The notes: generated by a model not told the origin, from the sequence alone. 64,000 nucleotides of DNA from Candidatus Bipolaricaulota bacterium (GCA_026982655.1 JALSGO010000083.1:30-64029), one strand, 5' to 3'. Shown: positions 12,629 through 18,533, numbered from the stretch's first letter. A program made the numbers and translations.

Positions 12629-12795
12629 GAACGGGGTCGGCTCGAGAGGCCCTGCCCGACTCGGCGGTGCGACGGATGCCAGGCTGGGGAGGGGGGAGGA
12701 GGGGAGCCCTTTCAGCAAGACCGACGTCGATACGGGACCGGGGGAGGATCGGATCGAAGGGGTGGGAGAAGGGGTGGGATAGGAGAGGCAGGATC

Positions 12796-13866
12796 ATGCG
12801 GGAACGGAGATCGGAAGAGATCGAGGAGAGCCGGAGCGAGAGGGAAGCGGCAGCAGAAGCCGGAGCAGGCGCGGAGGAGGCTTTTGTCTCCTCGGGGTCT
12901 GACCTCGCCCCCGACCCCGATCCTGCCCTGGAGGGGAGCTGGGGCCCCTTGGGGGAGTGGGAAGAGGGAGAAGGGGAAGGGGATCGAGCCGAGGAGGGGA
13001 GCGCCCCGCCTGCGGAAGGAGGATCGGGAGGCCGGGAGGATCCGATCCAAACCTACCTCCGGGAGATCGGCCGCATCCCGCTGCTGACGGCGGAGGAGGA
13101 GAAGGAGTTGGCCCGTCGCGCCCGTGCCGGGGACGAGGAAGCCAAGGCGAAGCTCGCCGCGGCCAACCTGCGCCTGGTGGTCTCCATCGCCAAGCGCTAC
13201 ACCGGACTGGGGCTCCCCCTGCTCGATTTGATCCAAGAGGGGAACGTGGGCCTGATGCGGGCCGTAGAGAAGTTTGACCCCGAGCGGGGATACAAGTTCA
13301 GCACCTACGCCACGTGGTGGATTCGTCAGGCCATCACGCGGGCCCTAACGCAGACTGCTCGATCCATCCGCCTCCCGGAGTCCCTCCTGCAGCGGTTGCG
13401 CAAGATCCAGGAAGCCGAGTCGGAGTGGCTCCAGGAGTACGGCGAGCTCCCCACGGACGAGGAGCTGGCGGAAGTGCTGGGGATGCCCGTTGAACAGATC
13501 CAAGAGGCCCGTCAGGCCCCGCAGTACACCCCCTCCCTCGATCAGCCCTTGGACGAAGAGGAGGACGGGGACGAGCTGGAGCAGCTCATCGGCAACGGGA
13601 GCCTCCCCTCCCCGCTGCGCACCGCCTTGAAGGAGCTGCGTCGCGAGGAGCTGCTCAAAGCTTTGGAATCGTTGAGTGAACGGGAGCGCAAGGTCCTCTC
13701 GCTGCGGTACGGTCTGGAGGACGACCAGCCCCGCACCCTCGAGGAGACCGGACGCATCCTGGGGATCAGCCGCGAGCGGGTCCGCCAGATCCAGAACGAA
13801 GCGCTGGAGAAGCTGCGCCAGCCCAAGATCCGCAAACGCTTGGAGAAGTTCCTCGACTTCACGTGA
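12796..13866 (+). CDS. rpoD: primary-like RNA polymerase sigma factor (sigma-70 family, RpoD/SigA)
   Basis: Acidic N-terminus, region 2 ([40 protein letters not shown]), regions 3 and 4 ([18 protein letters not shown]). AGGAGAGG RBS precedes ATG 12796. Confidence 0.92.
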
Positions 13867-14107: not shown

Positions 14108-14368
14108 ATGGCCTTTGTCATCGCGGAGCCCTGTGTGAACACCAAGTCGGGCGAGTGCCTCCAAGTCTGTCCGGTGGATTGCATCCACCCGCGTCCGGAT
14201 GAGCCCGGATACGACGAGGCCCCCCAGCTGTACATCGACCCACAGACCTGCATCAACTGCGGCGCGTGCGCGTCCGTCTGCCCGGTGGAGGCGATCTTCC
14301 CCGAGGAGGACCTCCCCGAGGAGTGGCGCAAGTACATCGAGATCAACGCGCAGTACTATCAGAAGTGA
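14108..14368 (+). CDS. ferredoxin (7Fe-type, 3Fe-4S + 4Fe-4S)
   Basis: CVNTKSGECLQVCPVDCI and CINCGACASVCPVEAI cluster motifs, with a strong GGAGAAGGAGG RBS. Confidence 0.9.
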   Translation: MAFVIAEPCVNTKSGECLQVCPVDCIHPRPDEPGYDEAPQLYIDPQTCINCGACASVCPVEAIFPEEDLPEEWRKYIEINAQYYQK

Positions 14369-14437
14369 CCCGCACGGAACGGAACGGGTCGTCTCCGCCT
14401 CCTCCAGGCCGTTCGGCGGTCCTGAAGGGCTTTCCTT

Positions 14438-15256
14438 TCAAGGGTCGAGGGCCGGATCCTTGGGAGGGCTCTGCCCCGTTCGGGGGACGAAGAGACGGAT
14501 CAACCCCATCCCGGCCAGGAATCCCCCGATATGGGCGATCCAAGCGACCCCGCCGCCGGCTCCGGATCCGGCCAGGGAAGCGTTCAGGAGCTGGAACAGG
14601 AACCAAAAGCCCAGGAAATACAGAGCCGGAAGCCGGAGGAGGCGCACGAAGTAGAAGAACCACAAGAGGGTGAGGACCCTTCCCCGAGGGTAGAGGACTA
14701 GGTAGGCCCCCAGCACGCCGGAGACGGCTCCCGAGGCACCGATCATCGGCACCGTCGAAGTAGGGTCTGCGGCGATCTGCGCTCCGGCGGCCGCCAATCC
14801 GCTTAGGAGATAGAAGAGAACAAAGCGAACCTTCCCCATCGCGTCTTCCACGTTGTCTGCAAAGACCCAAAGGTACCACATGTTCCCCACCAGATGGAGT
14901 ATGCTTCCGTGAAGAAACATAGAGGTGAATAGAGTCATCCAGAGGGGGAACTCGACGGGCGGGAAGGGCGAACAGCTCCCCAGCACCTCGCAGGGGGAGA
15001 GGCCGTAGGTGTAGAGGAAGAGCATCTCTCGGCTGAGATAAGCACCATGCCCTCCTCCGAGCTCAACCCAAACCCTACGATCGCCCAGGAGAAAGGCCTG
15101 ATAGAGGTAGATGAGGACGTCGATCGCGATGATCGTGACGGTCACCCCGGGGAAGGTGCGGCTGGGCCGGTAATCGCGCAGGGGGAAGAACACCGAGCAT
15201 CGCCTCGCTCTCCGGAAAGTCGGGCCCACTCTACCGCTTGGGGGAAAGCGCTGCAA
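14438..15256 (-). CDS. rhomboid family intramembrane serine protease
   Basis: HGSILHLVGNMWYLW and GASGAVSGVLGAY (catalytic Ser) motifs, with a downstream AHIGGFLAG His motif. The TTG at 15256 is the longest start; a GTG at 15193 with a GAGG RBS is an alternative. Confidence 0.85.
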   Translation of the reverse strand: MQRFPPSGRVGPTFRRARRCSVFFPLRDYRPSRTFPGVTVTIIAIDVLIYLYQAFLLGDRRVWVELGGGHGAYLSREMLFLYTYGLSPCEVLGSCSPFPPVEFPLWMTLFTSMFLHGSILHLVGNMWYLWVFADNVEDAMGKVRFVLFYLLSGLAAAGAQIAADPTSTVPMIGASGAVSGVLGAYLVLYPRGRVLTLLWFFYFVRLLRLPALYFLGFWFLFQLLNASLAGSGAGGGVAWIAHIGGFLAGMGLIRLFVPRTGQSPPKDPALDP

Positions 15257-15267
15257 CTCCGCTCCGT

Positions 15268-15296
15268 TTGAGTTCGCGGAGGCGCGGGCCTACAAT
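15268..15296 (+). promoter_or_regulatory. putative promoter TTGAGT-17-TACAAT for the DUF360-hicBA string
   Basis: Hexamers at 15268..15273 and 15291..15296. ATG 15304 follows the -10 box by 7 nt with no SD, consistent with a leaderless start. Confidence 0.45.
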
Positions 15297-15303
15297 GATA
15301 ACG

Positions 15304-15702
15304 ATGCGCTCCTCAAAGCTTCTTGCGTTCTTCGCGCGCTGGGTGGCCGGGACCCTGGCCATCTACGCCGTGGCTTGGCTTCTGCCGGGCATCGTGGTGG
15401 AGGACTTCGCCGCGGCGATCTGGGCCGGGCTGGCGTTGGGGCTCCTCAACGCTTTCCTACGCCCGCTGTTGATCTTCTTCACCCTCCCGGCCACGATCGT
15501 GACGTTGGGGCTGTTTATCCTGGTGATCAACGCGTTCATCCTCTATTTGGTGGGGGAGCTGGTGGCGGGCGTGGAGATCCGCGGCTTCGGCTCCGCGTTC
15601 CTGGGGGCGCTCCTCATCAGCCTCCTGAGCAGCGTCCTCTACGCCCTCATCGGACCGGAAGAATATCGTGTGCGGGTGGAACTTCGACGGGGACCCCGAT
15701 GA
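15304..15702 (+). CDS. DUF360 / phage-holin-4-2 (YvlD-like) family membrane protein
   Basis: Four TM helices and the NAFLRPLLIFFTLPATIVTLGLF pattern typical of this family. The alternative in-frame ATG at 15295 overlaps the predicted -10 box. Confidence 0.7.
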   Translation: MRSSKLLAFFARWVAGTLAIYAVAWLLPGIVVEDFAAAIWAGLALGLLNAFLRPLLIFFTLPATIVTLGLFILVINAFILYLVGELVAGVEIRGFGSAFLGALLISLLSSVLYALIGPEEYRVRVELRRGPR

Positions 15703-15977
15703 AGAGGAAGACGAGGGTGAAGGTCTTCTCCCTTCGGCGCTATGTCGAGGAAGCGCTGAAAAGGGCTTGCTACGAGGTCGACGAGAACGGCGTGGTGATC
15801 GCCAAGGTGCCGGATGCGTCCGGGTTCTTCGCCCAAGGGGAGACGTTCGAGGAGGCCCGGGAGAACCTGCGCGACGTCATTGAGGGAAACGTCATACTGG
15901 CCTTGCAGTTGGGGCTGGAGATCCCCCAGGTCTCCGGCGTCAAGATCGAAGAGCGCGAGGTTCCTATCGAGTCGTGA
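15699..15977 (+). CDS. hicB: HicB-family antitoxin (short, UPF0150-type, no obvious DNA-binding tail)
   Basis: 92 aa with a GFFAQGETFEEARENLRDVIE pattern. Its ATG overlaps the stop of the DUF360 gene (ATGA). Sits directly upstream of hicA. Confidence 0.75.
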   Translation: MKRKTRVKVFSLRRYVEEALKRACYEVDENGVVIAKVPDASGFFAQGETFEEARENLRDVIEGNVILALQLGLEIPQVSGVKIEEREVPIES

Positions 15978-15984
15978 GGGGCGG

Positions 15985-16209
15985 ATGGCCAAGCTCACCC
16001 CTCTCAAGCCCCGGCAGGTGATTCAAAAGCTGAGGAAGCTCGGCTACGTCGGTCCCTTCCCCGGCGGACGCCATCGCAGAATGGTACACCCGGAGTCGGG
16101 CAAGATCATTCCCATCCCCATGCACAGGGGGAAGGATGTGAGCGTAGGCCTCATCCGCGAGATCCTCCGCGAACTCGGCATCTCGCGTGAGGAGTGGCTG
16201 GACCTATAG
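15985..16209 (+). CDS. hicA: HicA-family mRNA interferase toxin
   Basis: 74 aa with LKPRQVIQKLRKLGY...GGRHRRM...IPIPMHRGKDV, matching the YcfA/HicA pattern including the conserved His. Confidence 0.8.
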   Translation: MAKLTPLKPRQVIQKLRKLGYVGPFPGGRHRRMVHPESGKIIPIPMHRGKDVSVGLIREILRELGISREEWLDL

Positions 16210-16273
16210 CTTCTCCTTCCCTGCTTGCAAGGCGGCTGGCGGACCGGAAGGTCGCAGGCAGGAGGAACTGGAC

Positions 16274-17230
16274 CTATAGCTCCAGCTCCTTCCCCACCCC
16301 CTGCTCCCGGGCCTTCCGGAAGAGGTGTGCCCCTACGGCGACGTCCTCCAGCGCGATCCCCTGGGACTCGAAGAGGGTGATCTCCTCGGCCTGAAGCCTT
16401 CCGGGGACGATCCCCGCCACCACGTCCTTGAGCTCACGGACCTGCTCCCAGCGCAGCACCCCCCGTTCGACCGCGGGGAGGAGGTCCCCGCACTCGACCC
16501 GGGCCTGCTCGAGGTCGTCCACCACCACGCGATTCGCCCGGCGGACGGCCTCGGTGTCCAGCTCGCGCCGGAGCCAGTGGTTCGAGCCCGCCGCCAGCAC
16601 GCACGTCCCCGGGGCGAGCCACTCCCCCCGGAGGACGGGCTCACGGGCCGAGGTGATCGTGATCACGATGTCCGCGCCCTCCACGGCCTCCCGCGCGTCG
16701 TCCACGGGTCGGATCTCCACACCCAGATGTTGGCCCATGCGCTCGGCGAAGGCCCGGCGGCGCTCGGGGGTGCGGCTGTAGACCCGGACGCGCTCGACGG
16801 GGCGGACCCGGCAGACGGCCTCCAACTGGGTCTCCGCTTGGTAGCCCGCGCCCAGAAGGCCCACGACCCAGGAGTCCTCTCGGGCCAAGTATTTGGCGGC
16901 CACCCCGGAGGCCGCGCCCGTGCGCACCTGCCCCAGGCGGTCGGCCTCCATCAAGGCCAAGACCTCCCCGGTCTCCGCGCCGAAGAGCACCACGAGGAAG
17001 CGGGCCCGGTGGCCCGCGACGGTGGAGTAGGACTTAAAGCCCATCACGCGCTCGTCGAGGGCCGCCGCGGGCATCAGGTGCAGAAAGCCGTGGGGCACCC
17101 GCACGCGCATCCGGGGACGGTTCACCGCCCTCCCCTCCCCCCAGCTGCGAAACGCCTCCTCCACGGCTCGGAGGGCGTCGTCCAGGGTGAGCAGCCTCTC
17201 CACATCGGATTCTCGAAGGAAAAGGGCCAT
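16274..17230 (-). CDS. ornithine cyclodeaminase / mu-crystallin family protein
   Basis: Full-length OCD_Mu_crystall pattern: RTGAASGVAAKYLA and the Rossmann motif GLLGAGYQA. Confidence 0.88.
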   Translation of the reverse strand: MALFLRESDVERLLTLDDALRAVEEAFRSWGEGRAVNRPRMRVRVPHGFLHLMPAAALDERVMGFKSYSTVAGHRARFLVVLFGAETGEVLALMEADRLGQVRTGAASGVAAKYLAREDSWVVGLLGAGYQAETQLEAVCRVRPVERVRVYSRTPERRRAFAERMGQHLGVEIRPVDDAREAVEGADIVITITSAREPVLRGEWLAPGTCVLAAGSNHWLRRELDTEAVRRANRVVVDDLEQARVECGDLLPAVERGVLRWEQVRELKDVVAGIVPGRLQAEEITLFESQGIALEDVAVGAHLFRKAREQGVGKELEL

Positions 17231-17261
17231 GCGAGTCCTCCTTTCTCATCCCAAGCCTTAC

Positions 17262-18533
17262 TTACGGTTGCTTCCGTAGCGCGGGGAAGACCCACGCGCC
17301 CACGAGGCCCGAGAGCGCCCCGCCCGCGCCCGCCAGCCCGAAGAGCCACGGCGCCTCCAACGCCTCGCCCAAGGCCCCCGTAGCAAACGACGAGAGGGCC
17401 ATAAACCCCACCACGGTAAGGTTCACCAGCGCGAAGACCCGCCCCAGGCGCTCCGGGGGCACAAGTTCTTGAATGAGCGACGTTCGGGTCACGGTGATGA
17501 GCGGGATGAACAGCCCGTGAAACGCGATCAGCGCCAAGCTCAGCCCGTAGGAGCGCACGTCCCCGCTCAGAAACGCCAGAAAGGGCAAATAGGTCGCCCC
17601 GTCCATCGCGATCCCGAGCAGCAGCAACTTCCCCTTGGGGAGGCGCTTGCCGTAGCGGAGCATCCCCAGCGTCCCCAGGAGCCACCCCGCCGCCAGCGCC
17701 GCCTGGAAGAACGCCAGGTGTCGGGCCTCCAGCTCGAGGGTTTGCTTGACGAAGAGGTTGGCCCCCACCACCGCCGGGCCCATGATGAAGAGGTTATCGA
17801 TGGCCGTGAGCAGCAGCAGCCCCCGCAGCACGGGCGAGCCCCACGCATACCGCAGCCCCTCGACGGCCTCCCGCCACGCCGAGGGCACCTCTCGTCGACG
17901 GCTCCCCAGGGGCGGCTCGTCCACCCGGATGAGCCAGACGCACAGGAACGAGACGAAGAAGGTGAGCCCGTCCAGCACCAGAAGCCGGATCATCGGGAGC
18001 ACCTCGTCCTCGCCCGCGCCTCCTCCGCTTCCCGTCTGCACGCTGAGCAGAACCCCGGCCAAGAGCGTCCCCGTGATCATCGCCAGCTGCGTCGAGGTCT
18101 GGACCCAGGCGTTCGCCTGCACCAGGCGCTCCTTCCCTACTAAAGAGGGGATCAGCGCGTCGCGGGCCGGGTTGAAGAGCGTGGAGAACGTCGAGAGCAG
18201 GAACGCGATCGCTCCCAAGGAGACCCAGCTCAGCCACCCCAGCGCCCAGAGCAGGGGCACCGCAAAGAGCAGAAGCCCCCGGGCGGCGTCGGAGAGGAGC
18301 ATCATCGTCCGGCGGCGGTAGCGGTCCACCAACGATCCGGCCAGGAGCCCGAACAACAAGAAGGGCAGCGTCTCCAAGGTGCTGACCGTCCCGGCCTTGA
18401 GCGCGCCCTGGGCGGGCTCGATCGTGAGGATCAAGAAGAGGACCGTGGCCTGAAACAGGAAATCCCCCGTCTGGGAGATGAACTGCCCGGCCCAAAGCAG
18501 CACCAAATTGCGGCTCTCCCGGAGGGCGATCAT
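17262..18533 (-). CDS. MFS transporter
   Basis: About 12 TM helices and an MFS loop motif GSLVDRYRRR. Confidence 0.85.
   Translation of the reverse strand: MIALRESRNLVLLWAGQFISQTGDFLFQATVLFLILTIEPAQGALKAGTVSTLETLPFLLFGLLAGSLVDRYRRRTMMLLSDAARGLLLFAVPLLWALGWLSWVSLGAIAFLLSTFSTLFNPARDALIPSLVGKERLVQANAWVQTSTQLAMITGTLLAGVLLSVQTGSGGGAGEDEVLPMIRLLVLDGLTFFVSFLCVWLIRVDEPPLGSRRREVPSAWREAVEGLRYAWGSPVLRGLLLLTAIDNLFIMGPAVVGANLFVKQTLELEARHLAFFQAALAAGWLLGTLGMLRYGKRLPKGKLLLLGIAMDGATYLPFLAFLSGDVRSYGLSLALIAFHGLFIPLITVTRTSLIQELVPPERLGRVFALVNLTVVGFMALSSFATGALGEALEAPWLFGLAGAGGALSGLVGAWVFPALRKQP

What the first reader, a model, noticed from the sequence alone, without database searches (positions are those of the whole stretch)
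15268..16209. DUF360 (holin-4-2/YvlD-like) membrane protein translationally coupled to a reversed-order, short hicB-hicA pair
Seen: one promoter (TTGAGT-17-TACAAT) and a predicted leaderless ATG at 15304. The DUF360 stop overlaps the hicB start (ATGA), and hicA follows 7 nt after hicB. HicB is only 92 aa and shows no obvious RHH/HTH DNA-binding tail. The antitoxin precedes the toxin. Established: HicA is an RNase toxin neutralised by HicB. Canonical hicAB has the toxin first and a HicB with a DNA-binding domain. PF04020 members are 4-TM proteins annotated as putative holins. Inference: a three-gene module in which a membrane (possibly lytic or stress-sensing) protein is co-expressed with a toxin-antitoxin pair. 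It is a candidate tripartite TA or abortive-infection-type unit.
Basis: partly seen in the sequence, partly recalled or inferred. Interest (0 to 1): 0.5.

Follow-up and report, generated by a model that had tools for sequence, protein, structure and literature searches.

The report
HicBA toxin-antitoxin docked behind membrane gene
An ordinary small HicB-HicA toxin-antitoxin pair of an already catalogued type sits directly behind a conserved membrane-protein gene in a few related uncultured bacteria, probably borrowing its promoter, but the two are not a conserved three-part system.

Summary
The unusual-looking features are not unusual. Small HicB without a DNA-binding domain, placed before hicA, is Gerdes's published "Class 2". 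It is also the norm in this HicB subfamily: 62 of 80 genome loci have hicA directly downstream of hicB.

The DUF360 link exists but is narrow. It occurs in three related lineages of one Bipolaricaulota/Acetothermia-like clade. There hicBA diverged about as much as DUF360 and is under purifying selection (dN/dS 0.06-0.12). Very close relatives lack hicBA at the same site, and their junctions look like deletions. None of 80 other hicB(A) loci has a DUF360 gene nearby. None of 80 other DUF360 loci has hicA or hicB.

DUF360 is a syntenic core gene with no similarity to phage proteins. The most likely reading is an autonomous TA cassette wedged, with no room for a promoter, between DUF360 and a convergent gene, and read from the DUF360 promoter. 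A functional tripartite or abortive-infection unit is not supported. Interest is low.

The parts
15268..15296 (+). Sigma-70-type promoter-like site of the DUF360 gene: -35 TTGAGT, 17-nt spacer, -10 TACAAT
   Evidence: Only hit in 3 kb. The -35 TTG and the -10 TA(C/G)AAT are conserved at fixed spacing in 8 orthologous loci (A5).
15304..15702 (+). PF04020/DUF360 (YvlD-like) four-helix membrane protein, 132 aa. Probably leaderless here, because the start is 7 nt after the -10 box.
   Evidence: Pfam E 1e-30. The AF2 model has pLDDT 88 with four long helices in two helix-strand-helix repeats. Orthologues share rhomboid and ferredoxin synteny. dN/dS is 0.06-0.28.
15699..15977 (+). hicB: small antitoxin (92 aa, UPF0150/HicB N-domain fold only, no DNA-binding domain). 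Its start overlaps the DUF360 stop (ATGA).
   Evidence: Pfam. The AF2 model has pLDDT 92.5. Foldseek top hits are TTHA0281 (2DSY), then the HicB N-domains 6G26, 6G1C and 6HPB. 370 homologues were found; the 120 listed are 79-125 aa.
15985..16209 (+). hicA: HicA-family RNase toxin, 74 aa, starting 7 nt after hicB
   Evidence: PF07927 E 1e-14. 1WHZ/TTHA1913 matches at E 5e-11, and His30 aligns with the His in the G-S-H motif of HicA3 chain 4P78_C. His30 is invariant in 71/71 aligned relatives. dN/dS is 0.06 against L170.
16210..16279 (.). 70-nt tail specific to this lineage, bounded by a 22-nt direct repeat (16190-16211 and 16260-16281) that duplicates the hicA 3' end and the palindromic CTATAG stop. 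It separates hicA from the convergent OCD gene.
   Evidence: Direct repeat found; unique in the window. Absent from L170, where hicA and OCD overlap on a single CTATAG. Folds into a hairpin of -46.4 kcal/mol, z -2.2.

Best explanation
This is a self-contained type II toxin-antitoxin pair of the small, DNA-binding-domain-less hicB-then-hicA kind (Gerdes Class 2). HicA is a small RNase toxin that keeps its conserved histidine. HicB is a single-domain protein with a partial RNase-H-like fold that would neutralise HicA by direct binding.

In an ancestor of a small clade of Bipolaricaulota/Acetothermia-like bacteria the pair became wedged between the 3' end of a conserved core membrane-protein gene (PF04020/DUF360) and a convergent ornithine-cyclodeaminase-family gene. 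Only about 5 nt lay upstream of it, and it shared a 6-nt stop-codon overlap downstream. It therefore has no room for its own promoter or terminator. It is most likely transcribed from the conserved DUF360 promoter and translated by coupling or re-initiation at the DUF360 stop.

It has since been inherited vertically under purifying selection in some lineages and deleted in others. DUF360 and hicBA do not depend on each other.

Shown: the gene identities, the junction anatomy, the phyletic pattern, the selection and the lack of wider co-occurrence. Inferred: co-transcription, leaderless initiation, toxicity and neutralisation.
For: - Family assignments.
- Class 2 definition.
- Subfamily norm: the 120 listed of 370 HicB homologues are 79-125 aa. 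62/80 genome loci have an intact hicA directly downstream, and 5 more have hicA-like sequence.
- Shared junction: three lineages carry the same DUF360-hicB-hicA-OCD arrangement, namely the window, L170/171 and L172/173.
- Co-inheritance under selection: hicB and hicA have dS 0.76-0.88 against 0.58 for DUF360 (window vs L170), with dN/dS 0.06-0.12. hicBA GC3 of 0.81-0.85 is like the 0.86 of DUF360.
- Deletions: L177 keeps the window-type junction (RRGPR*, CGACGGGGACCGCGATGAA) followed by filler repeats. In L003 and L178 the OCD gene has lost the shared CTATAG stop and reads on. On the NJ tree, lineages with hicBA are interspersed with lineages without it.
- Independence: 0/80 hicB loci have a PF04020 ORF within +-4 kb. 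0/80 DUF360 loci have hicA or hicB.
- Transcription: the only promoter-like site is upstream of DUF360 and is conserved. No internal site was found in L170 or L173.
Against: - There are no transcript data, so an internal promoter inside the DUF360 coding sequence that the simple consensus scan misses cannot be excluded.
- The arrangement has persisted over dS of about 0.6-0.9 with a tight or overlapping DUF360 stop / hicB start in all three lineages. That could also reflect selection for linked expression rather than mere hitch-hiking.
- Class 2 HicBA modules have not been tested experimentally, so toxicity and neutralisation are inferred from homology.
- The comparative samples are the best 80 loci per scan, not a census.
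Confidence: 0.72

Rival explanations
1. True three-component module. The DUF360 membrane protein would be a functional partner of HicBA, acting as a sensor, effector or anchor, and the three genes would form a tripartite TA or abortive-infection unit.
For: - Tight or overlapping DUF360 stop / hicB start in three lineages.
- hicBA kept under purifying selection next to DUF360.
- HicB lacks a DNA-binding domain, so some outside input into regulation is needed.
- PF04020 homologues in Firmicutes belong to an envelope-stress (Psp-like, sigma-W) operon.
Against: - 0/80 and 0/80 co-occurrence outside the clade.
- hicBA was deleted at least twice, probably three times, inside the clade while DUF360 stayed intact and under purifying selection.
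- DUF360 orthologues without hicBA are the majority.
- No PADLOC match and no defence-island context.
- No phage relatives of DUF360.
Confidence: 0.08
2. Purely physical adjacency. hicBA would be transcribed from its own promoter hidden in the 3' part of the DUF360 coding sequence, independently of DUF360 expression.
For: Most other members of the subfamily have tens to hundreds of nt upstream of hicB and so presumably their own promoters. By a crude ORF-based measure, only about 13% have a same-strand ORF of at least 100 aa ending within 10 nt of the hicB start.
Against: - No promoter-like site between 15297 and 15699 in the window, nor in the equivalent stretch of L170 or L173.
- The stop/start overlap and the SD-like motifs inside the DUF360 3' end fit a polycistronic mRNA.
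Confidence: 0.15
3. A decaying, non-functional TA remnant on its way to deletion.
For: Closely related lineages have lost the pair. About 10 of 80 other loci carry an orphan hicB.
Against: - Both ORFs are intact in the window and in L170.
- dN/dS is 0.06-0.12.
- The catalytic-type His30 is retained.
- HicB folds with high confidence.
Confidence: 0.05

Closest known systems
Class 2 hicBA modules (Gerdes 2024, mBio 15:e03293-23; PMC10865869)
   Same: hicB precedes hicA. HicB is small (92 aa, within the class range of 63-103 codons) and has no recognisable DNA-binding domain. The genes are closely linked (7 nt) and HicA is about 74 aa.
   Different: Here the pair is fused onto the 3' end of a host membrane-protein gene with no upstream intergenic region. 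The paper does not mention membrane or holin contexts.
Thermus thermophilus TTHA0281 (PDB 2DSY) and TTHA1913 (PDB 1WHZ)
   Same: These are the closest solved relatives. For HicB: profile E 3.5e-6, Foldseek TM 0.70-0.84, rmsd 1.6 A. For HicA: E 4.6e-11. Both are single-domain proteins of similar length.
   Different: About 32-34% identity for HicB. The Thermus proteins are structural-genomics entries with no functional data known to me. Whether they are encoded as a pair was not checked.
Classical hicAB (E. coli, B. pseudomallei, Y. pestis HicA3B3; Gerdes Classes 3/4)
   Same: The same HicA fold family with a conserved histidine, and the same HicB N-terminal partial RNase-H fold. 6G26, 6HPB and 4P78 appear among the Foldseek and HMM hits.
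   Different: The gene order is reversed. HicB lacks the C-terminal HTH/RHH domain used for operator binding and autoregulation.
B. subtilis YvlD / L. monocytogenes Lmo2484 (DUF360 in the yvlABCD Psp-like envelope-stress operon)
   Same: The same Pfam family, PF04020, and a small four-helix membrane protein.
   Different: In the window DUF360 is not next to PspC or toastrack genes. It is divergent from a rhomboid protease gene. Only one relative, L174, has PspA nearby.
Host gene-TA operon fusions and three-gene TA systems (relA-mazEF, HigBA-SecB 'TAC', paaR-paaA-parE); recalled from my own knowledge, not tested here
   Same: A TA pair expressed together with a third gene on one transcript.
   Different: In real tripartite systems the third gene, a chaperone or regulator, co-occurs with the TA pair across lineages. 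Here it does not.

Membership tests
HicA toxin family (PF07927) | Sequence match above the curated threshold | tested here: met
   54.7 bits against a cut-off of 27, E 1e-14, covering the full-length profile. PHROG 353 'toxin' matches at E 6e-13.
HicA toxin family (PF07927) | Conserved active-site histidine in the G-x-H motif | tested here: met
   His30 (GGRH) aligns with the His in the G-S-H motif of HicA3 chain 4P78_C. It is invariant in 71/71 aligned relatives. That this histidine is the catalytic residue is recalled from the literature.
HicA toxin family (PF07927) | RNase activity and growth inhibition | not testable with these tools
   Needs expression and cleavage assays.
HicB antitoxin (UPF0150 / HicB N-domain) | Sequence match above the curated threshold | tested here: met
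   PF21748 scores 63.9 bits against 27.3. PF15919 scores 28.3 against 27.
HicB antitoxin (UPF0150 / HicB N-domain) | Partial RNase-H-like beta-beta-beta-alpha-beta fold | tested here: met
   The AF2 model has pLDDT 92.5 with elements E-H-E-E-E-H-E. Foldseek top hits are 2DSY, then the HicB N-domains 6G26, 6G1C, 6HPB and 4P78.
Classical hicAB (Gerdes Classes 3/4) | hicA upstream of hicB, and HicB with a C-terminal HTH or RHH DNA-binding domain | tested here: not met
   The order is hicB then hicA. HicB ends 16 residues after the UPF0150 domain and has no DNA-binding-domain Pfam hit.
Class 2 hicBA (Gerdes 2024) | hicB upstream of hicA, HicB of 63-103 codons without a DNA-binding domain, genes closely linked | tested here: met
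   92 codons, no DNA-binding domain, 7-nt gap. Class definition.
PF04020 / DUF360 (Phage_holin_4_2) | Sequence match above threshold and a four-helix membrane topology | tested here: met
   106.8 bits against 28.8. The AF2 model shows helices 2-26, 35-59, 61-86 and 95-116.
Phage holin (functional sense) | Encoded in a phage or prophage lysis cassette, with relatives in phage genomes | tested here: not met
   The neighbours are ferredoxin, rhomboid, OCD, MFS and a sigma factor. Rhomboid and ferredoxin synteny recurs in the related loci read. No PHROG match at E<=0.01. No relative in IMG/VR by a pattern scan, whose sensitivity is limited.
Phage holin (functional sense) | Membrane-permeabilising or lytic activity | not testable with these tools
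   Needs expression assays.
Tripartite TA / three-gene defence module | The third gene co-occurs with the TA pair across independent lineages | tested here: not met
   0/80 hicB(A) genome loci have PF04020 within +-4 kb. 0/80 DUF360 metagenome loci have hicA or hicB. The link is present only in three lineages of one clade and was lost in close relatives.
Tripartite TA / three-gene defence module | Match to a known defence-system component, or a defence-island context | tested here: not met
   No PADLOC hit for any of the three proteins. The flanking genes are housekeeping.

The most novel reading that the evidence does not exclude
In this Bipolaricaulota clade a Class 2 HicBA that cannot repress its own promoter may have been wired onto the promoter and ribosome flow of a PF04020 envelope-stress-type membrane protein. 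Toxin-to-antitoxin dosage would then track membrane stress or phage-induced membrane damage. That would make it a working three-gene stress or abortive-infection unit. It would also be a natural example of how hicBA modules without a DNA-binding domain obtain regulation, a question Gerdes (2024) flags as open.
Probability: 0.08. Interest if true: 0.55.

Novelty: new member of a known kind. Interest (0 to 1): 0.2.

Why it matters
As found, it matters little. It is one more Class 2 hicBA pair, in an uncultured thermophile-type lineage, in a housekeeping neighbourhood.

Two modest points of value remain. First, it is a clean natural example of a TA cassette with no room for its own promoter, persisting under selection while embedded in a host operon and then being precisely deleted in sister lineages. 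This illustrates both the dispensability and the gain/loss dynamics of chromosomal TA pairs. Second, it bears on the open question of how hicBA modules without a DNA-binding domain are regulated. It also cautions against reading "Phage_holin_4_2" annotations as evidence of a lytic function.

Tried and rejected
- Recent insertion. My first reading was that hicBA is a recent insertion unique to this genome, because the DUF360 orthologue that is 96% identical (L003) lacks it. I rejected this after finding the same junction in L170/171 and L172/173. Synonymous divergence was comparable, and L177, L003 and L178 show deletion scars.
- Truncated hicA in L170. The 42-aa hicA in L170 is a gene-calling error. 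A full 74-aa ORF starts directly after the hicB stop.
- Mobile repeat or attC-like element. The 70-nt tail (16210-16279) is single-copy in the window. Its hairpin is only mildly better than shuffles, z -2.2.
- Docking as the general solution for Class 2 regulation. By a crude ORF-based measure only 13% of other loci have a long same-strand ORF ending within 10 nt of hicB, against 6% for controls. This is not general, and the method is weak.
- Searches that found nothing: NCBIfam and PADLOC for all three proteins; PHROGs and PDB Foldseek for DUF360; IMG/VR for DUF360 and HicB; the literature for any DUF360-HicA or holin-HicA module.
- Organism name. It could not be obtained. The Bipolaricaulota/Acetothermia assignment rests on named homologues.
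- Rhomboid tree. The window row of that tree used an over-long ORF start and should be ignored.

Full report
**Observation**

The region reads as the first-stage reader described it.
- A sigma-70-like site, TTGAGT-17-TACAAT (15268-15296), is the only such hit in 14300-17300, against 0.3 expected from shuffles.
- An ATG at 15304 lies 7 nt after the -10 box and opens a 132-aa PF04020/DUF360 protein, E 1e-30.
- Its TGA stop (15700-15702) overlaps the ATG (15699-15701) of a 92-aa protein. That protein matches PF21748 UPF0150 at 63.9 bits and, marginally, PF15919 HicB_lk_antitox.
- Seven nucleotides after its stop, a 74-aa PF07927 HicA begins at 15985 and ends at 16209.
- The same locus is present on two further contigs.
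- The gene caller started DUF360 at ATG 15295, which lies inside the -10 box. Alignment with orthologues shows 15304 is the orthologous start.

**The promoter and the leader**

An alignment of the rhomboid-DUF360 intergenic region from eight orthologous loci shows a conserved TTGnnn-17-TA(C/G)AAT (A5). The promoter call therefore rests on conservation, not only on a consensus match.

All seven relatives keep a longer leader containing a GGAGG-like Shine-Dalgarno motif between the -10 box and the start. The window has lost it, leaving 7 nt. Leaderless initiation is thus a reasonable inference for this lineage only. It is not a property of the family.

**What the hicBA pair is**

HicB:
- A search with HicB returned 370 homologues. 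The 120 listed are 79-125 aa and 63-100% identical to the query, and they come from many phyla (alignment A2).
- The AlphaFold model is confident, with pLDDT 92.5.
- Its best solved matches are T. thermophilus TTHA0281 (2DSY, TM 0.70-0.84). After that come the N-terminal domains of B. pseudomallei, E. coli and Y. pestis HicB.
- No DNA-binding domain can fit in the 16 residues that follow the UPF0150 domain.

HicA:
- It matches TTHA1913 (1WHZ) at E 5e-11.
- Its His30 aligns with the G-S-H histidine of HicA3 and is invariant in 71 of 71 aligned relatives.

Subfamily and class:
- 80 genome loci carry a relative of this HicB. In 62 an intact hicA ORF lies immediately downstream on the same strand, and 5 more have hicA-like sequence.
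- Gerdes (2024, PMC10865869) defines exactly this arrangement as Class 2: hicBA with a small HicB of 63-103 codons and no DNA-binding domain. He notes that the class is untested experimentally and that its regulation is an open question.
- "Reversed-order, short" is therefore a catalogued class and the norm for this subfamily, not an anomaly.

**Is the DUF360 link conserved?**

I first found that the closest DUF360 orthologue (P0002, 96% identical; L003-L005) and an 84% orthologue (L006-L008) lack hicBA. Both share the ferredoxin-rhomboid-DUF360-OCD synteny. That suggested a recent insertion.

The closest HicB relatives told a different story.
- P0122 (L170/L171) and P0124 (L172/L173) also sit directly behind a PF04020 gene.
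- The DNA alignment shows the same DUF360-hicB-hicA-OCD arrangement.
- The 42-aa hicA called in L170 is a calling error. A full 74-aa ORF starts right after the hicB stop.

Divergence is consistent with co-inheritance under purifying selection.

| Gene (window vs L170) | dS | dN/dS |
|---|---|---|
| DUF360 | 0.58 | 0.08 |
| hicB | 0.76 | 0.12 |
| hicA | 0.88 | 0.06 |

The hicBA GC3 of 0.81-0.85 is close to the 0.86 of DUF360.

Further very close DUF360 orthologues (L177, L178) lack hicBA, as do more distant ones (L174, L175/176, L009).

**Gain or loss?**

The junctions point to loss.
- In L170 the DUF360 stop is 5 nt before the hicB ATG. hicA and the convergent OCD gene overlap on a single palindromic CTATAG, which each strand reads as Leu plus stop.
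- L177 keeps the window-type 5' junction: DUF360 ends RRGPR*, with CGACGGGGACCGCGATGAA, which includes the hicB ATG. Then come three copies of CGATGAACACC and two of GATCGACC, and then the OCD end. This is a deletion scar.
- In L003 and L178 the sequence jumps from TGAG to CTCCAGC. OCD has lost the CTATAG stop and reads on by 14 and 2 codons respectively. In L003 it overlaps DUF360 by 47 nt.
- On a DUF360 neighbour-joining tree, lineages with hicBA (window, L170, L173) are interspersed with lineages without it (L003/L178, L177, L006).
- The most economical history is one gain at the base of this small clade, followed by two or three deletions.

**Wider co-occurrence**

- None of the 80 hicB(A) genome loci has a PF04020-like ORF within about 4 kb.
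- None of 80 metagenomic DUF360 loci (32-50% identity to the window protein) has a HicA- or HicB-like ORF within 3 kb.
- The window itself has only one copy of each gene.
- The pairing is therefore confined to one clade.

**DUF360 itself**

- It is a core gene here. It keeps its position divergent from a rhomboid protease gene, usually with the ferredoxin gene beyond it, across the related loci read, and its dN/dS is 0.06-0.28.
- The model shows four long helices in two helix-strand-helix repeats, with pLDDT 88. It has no solved structural relative.
- It has no PHROG match at E<=0.01 and no relative in IMG/VR by the pattern-limited scan.
- In Firmicutes, PF04020 members (YvlD, Lmo2484) belong to a Psp-like, sigma-W-regulated envelope-stress operon. 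One relative here (L174) has PspA two genes away.
- "Holin" is an annotation label, not something this locus supports.
- None of the three proteins matches PADLOC, and the neighbourhood is housekeeping.

**Mechanism**

The cassette has essentially no upstream or downstream non-coding DNA in the ancestral arrangement. No promoter-like site lies between the DUF360 promoter and hicB in the window, L170 or L173. Each lineage has an SD-like purine run inside the DUF360 3' end, just upstream of the hicB start.

I therefore infer the following, none of it shown:
- hicBA is transcribed from the DUF360 promoter.
- It is translated by coupling or re-initiation at the DUF360 stop.
- HicB neutralises HicA by direct binding, as in the solved HicAB complexes.
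- Regulation is whatever the DUF360 promoter provides, since there is no DNA-binding domain for autoregulation.

A crude ORF-based survey suggests such tight docking is a minority arrangement in the subfamily. 13% of loci have a long same-strand ORF ending within 10 nt of hicB, against 6% for controls.

**Verdict**

- The operon reading is plausible.
- The "unusual hicBA" and "tripartite/Abi module" readings are not supported.
- This is a new member of a known kind (Class 2 hicBA) in a lineage-specific host-operon context.
- The residual novel reading is regulatory capture of a HicBA without a DNA-binding domain by an envelope-stress-type gene. I put it at about 8%.

Noticed in passing
window 15297-15303 (compare A5: L003, L170, L172, L006, L174, L175, L009): All seven relatives keep a longer leader with a GGAGG-like SD between the conserved -10 box and the DUF360 start. 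The window has only 7 nt and no SD, so the leaderless state is a lineage-specific deletion.
   Followed up: partly
window 16190-16281: A 22-nt direct repeat (86% identical; 14 nt exact, CTGGACCTATAGCT) brackets a 70-nt tail after hicA. It duplicates the hicA 3' end and the palindromic CTATAG stop, giving hicA and the convergent OCD gene separate stops. The region folds into a hairpin of -46.4 kcal/mol (z -2.2). It is absent from L170 and single-copy in the window.
   Followed up: yes
L170 1377-1382: hicA and the convergent OCD-family gene overlap on one palindromic CTATAG, which each strand reads as Leu plus stop. The gene caller mis-called hicA here as a 42-aa fragment, but the full 74-aa ORF (1158-1382) is intact.
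   Followed up: yes
L177 2655-2720: Deletion scar where hicBA used to be. The DUF360 'GPR*' end and the hicB ATG are retained. They are followed by 3 x CGATGAACACC and 2 x GATCGACC filler repeats, and then the OCD stop.
   Followed up: partly
L003 4344-4390; L178 1289-1299: After loss of hicBA and the shared CTATAG stop, the OCD-family gene reads on by 14 codons in L003, overlapping DUF360 by 47 nt, and by 2 codons in L178.
   Followed up: partly
window 15270-15282 and 16164-16176: A perfect 13-nt inverted repeat lies between the spacer of the DUF360 promoter and the 3' part of hicA. The corresponding L170 sequences read do not match it, so it is probably chance.
   Followed up: partly
L174 415-2623: A 78%-identical DUF360 orthologue lies two genes from a PspA_IM30 gene. 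This echoes the Psp-like yvlABCD context of PF04020 in Firmicutes.
   Followed up: no
L042 1245-5778 (Dehalococcoidia UBA2247): Three to four hicB/hicA-like pairs lie within about 4.5 kb, forming a TA cluster. Several other loci (L015, L034, L047, L048, L066) carry two pairs.
   Followed up: no
L014, L020, L021, L022, L045, L046, L054, L071, L077, L080: About 10 of 80 loci carry this small hicB with no detectable hicA downstream, although flanking sequence is available. These are orphan antitoxins.
   Followed up: no
window 12667-13866: The RpoD-like sigma-70 gene has a long, Glu/Gly-rich N-terminal region in its longest ORF (399 aa). The gene caller used a shorter start (356 aa), so the true start is uncertain.
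   Followed up: no
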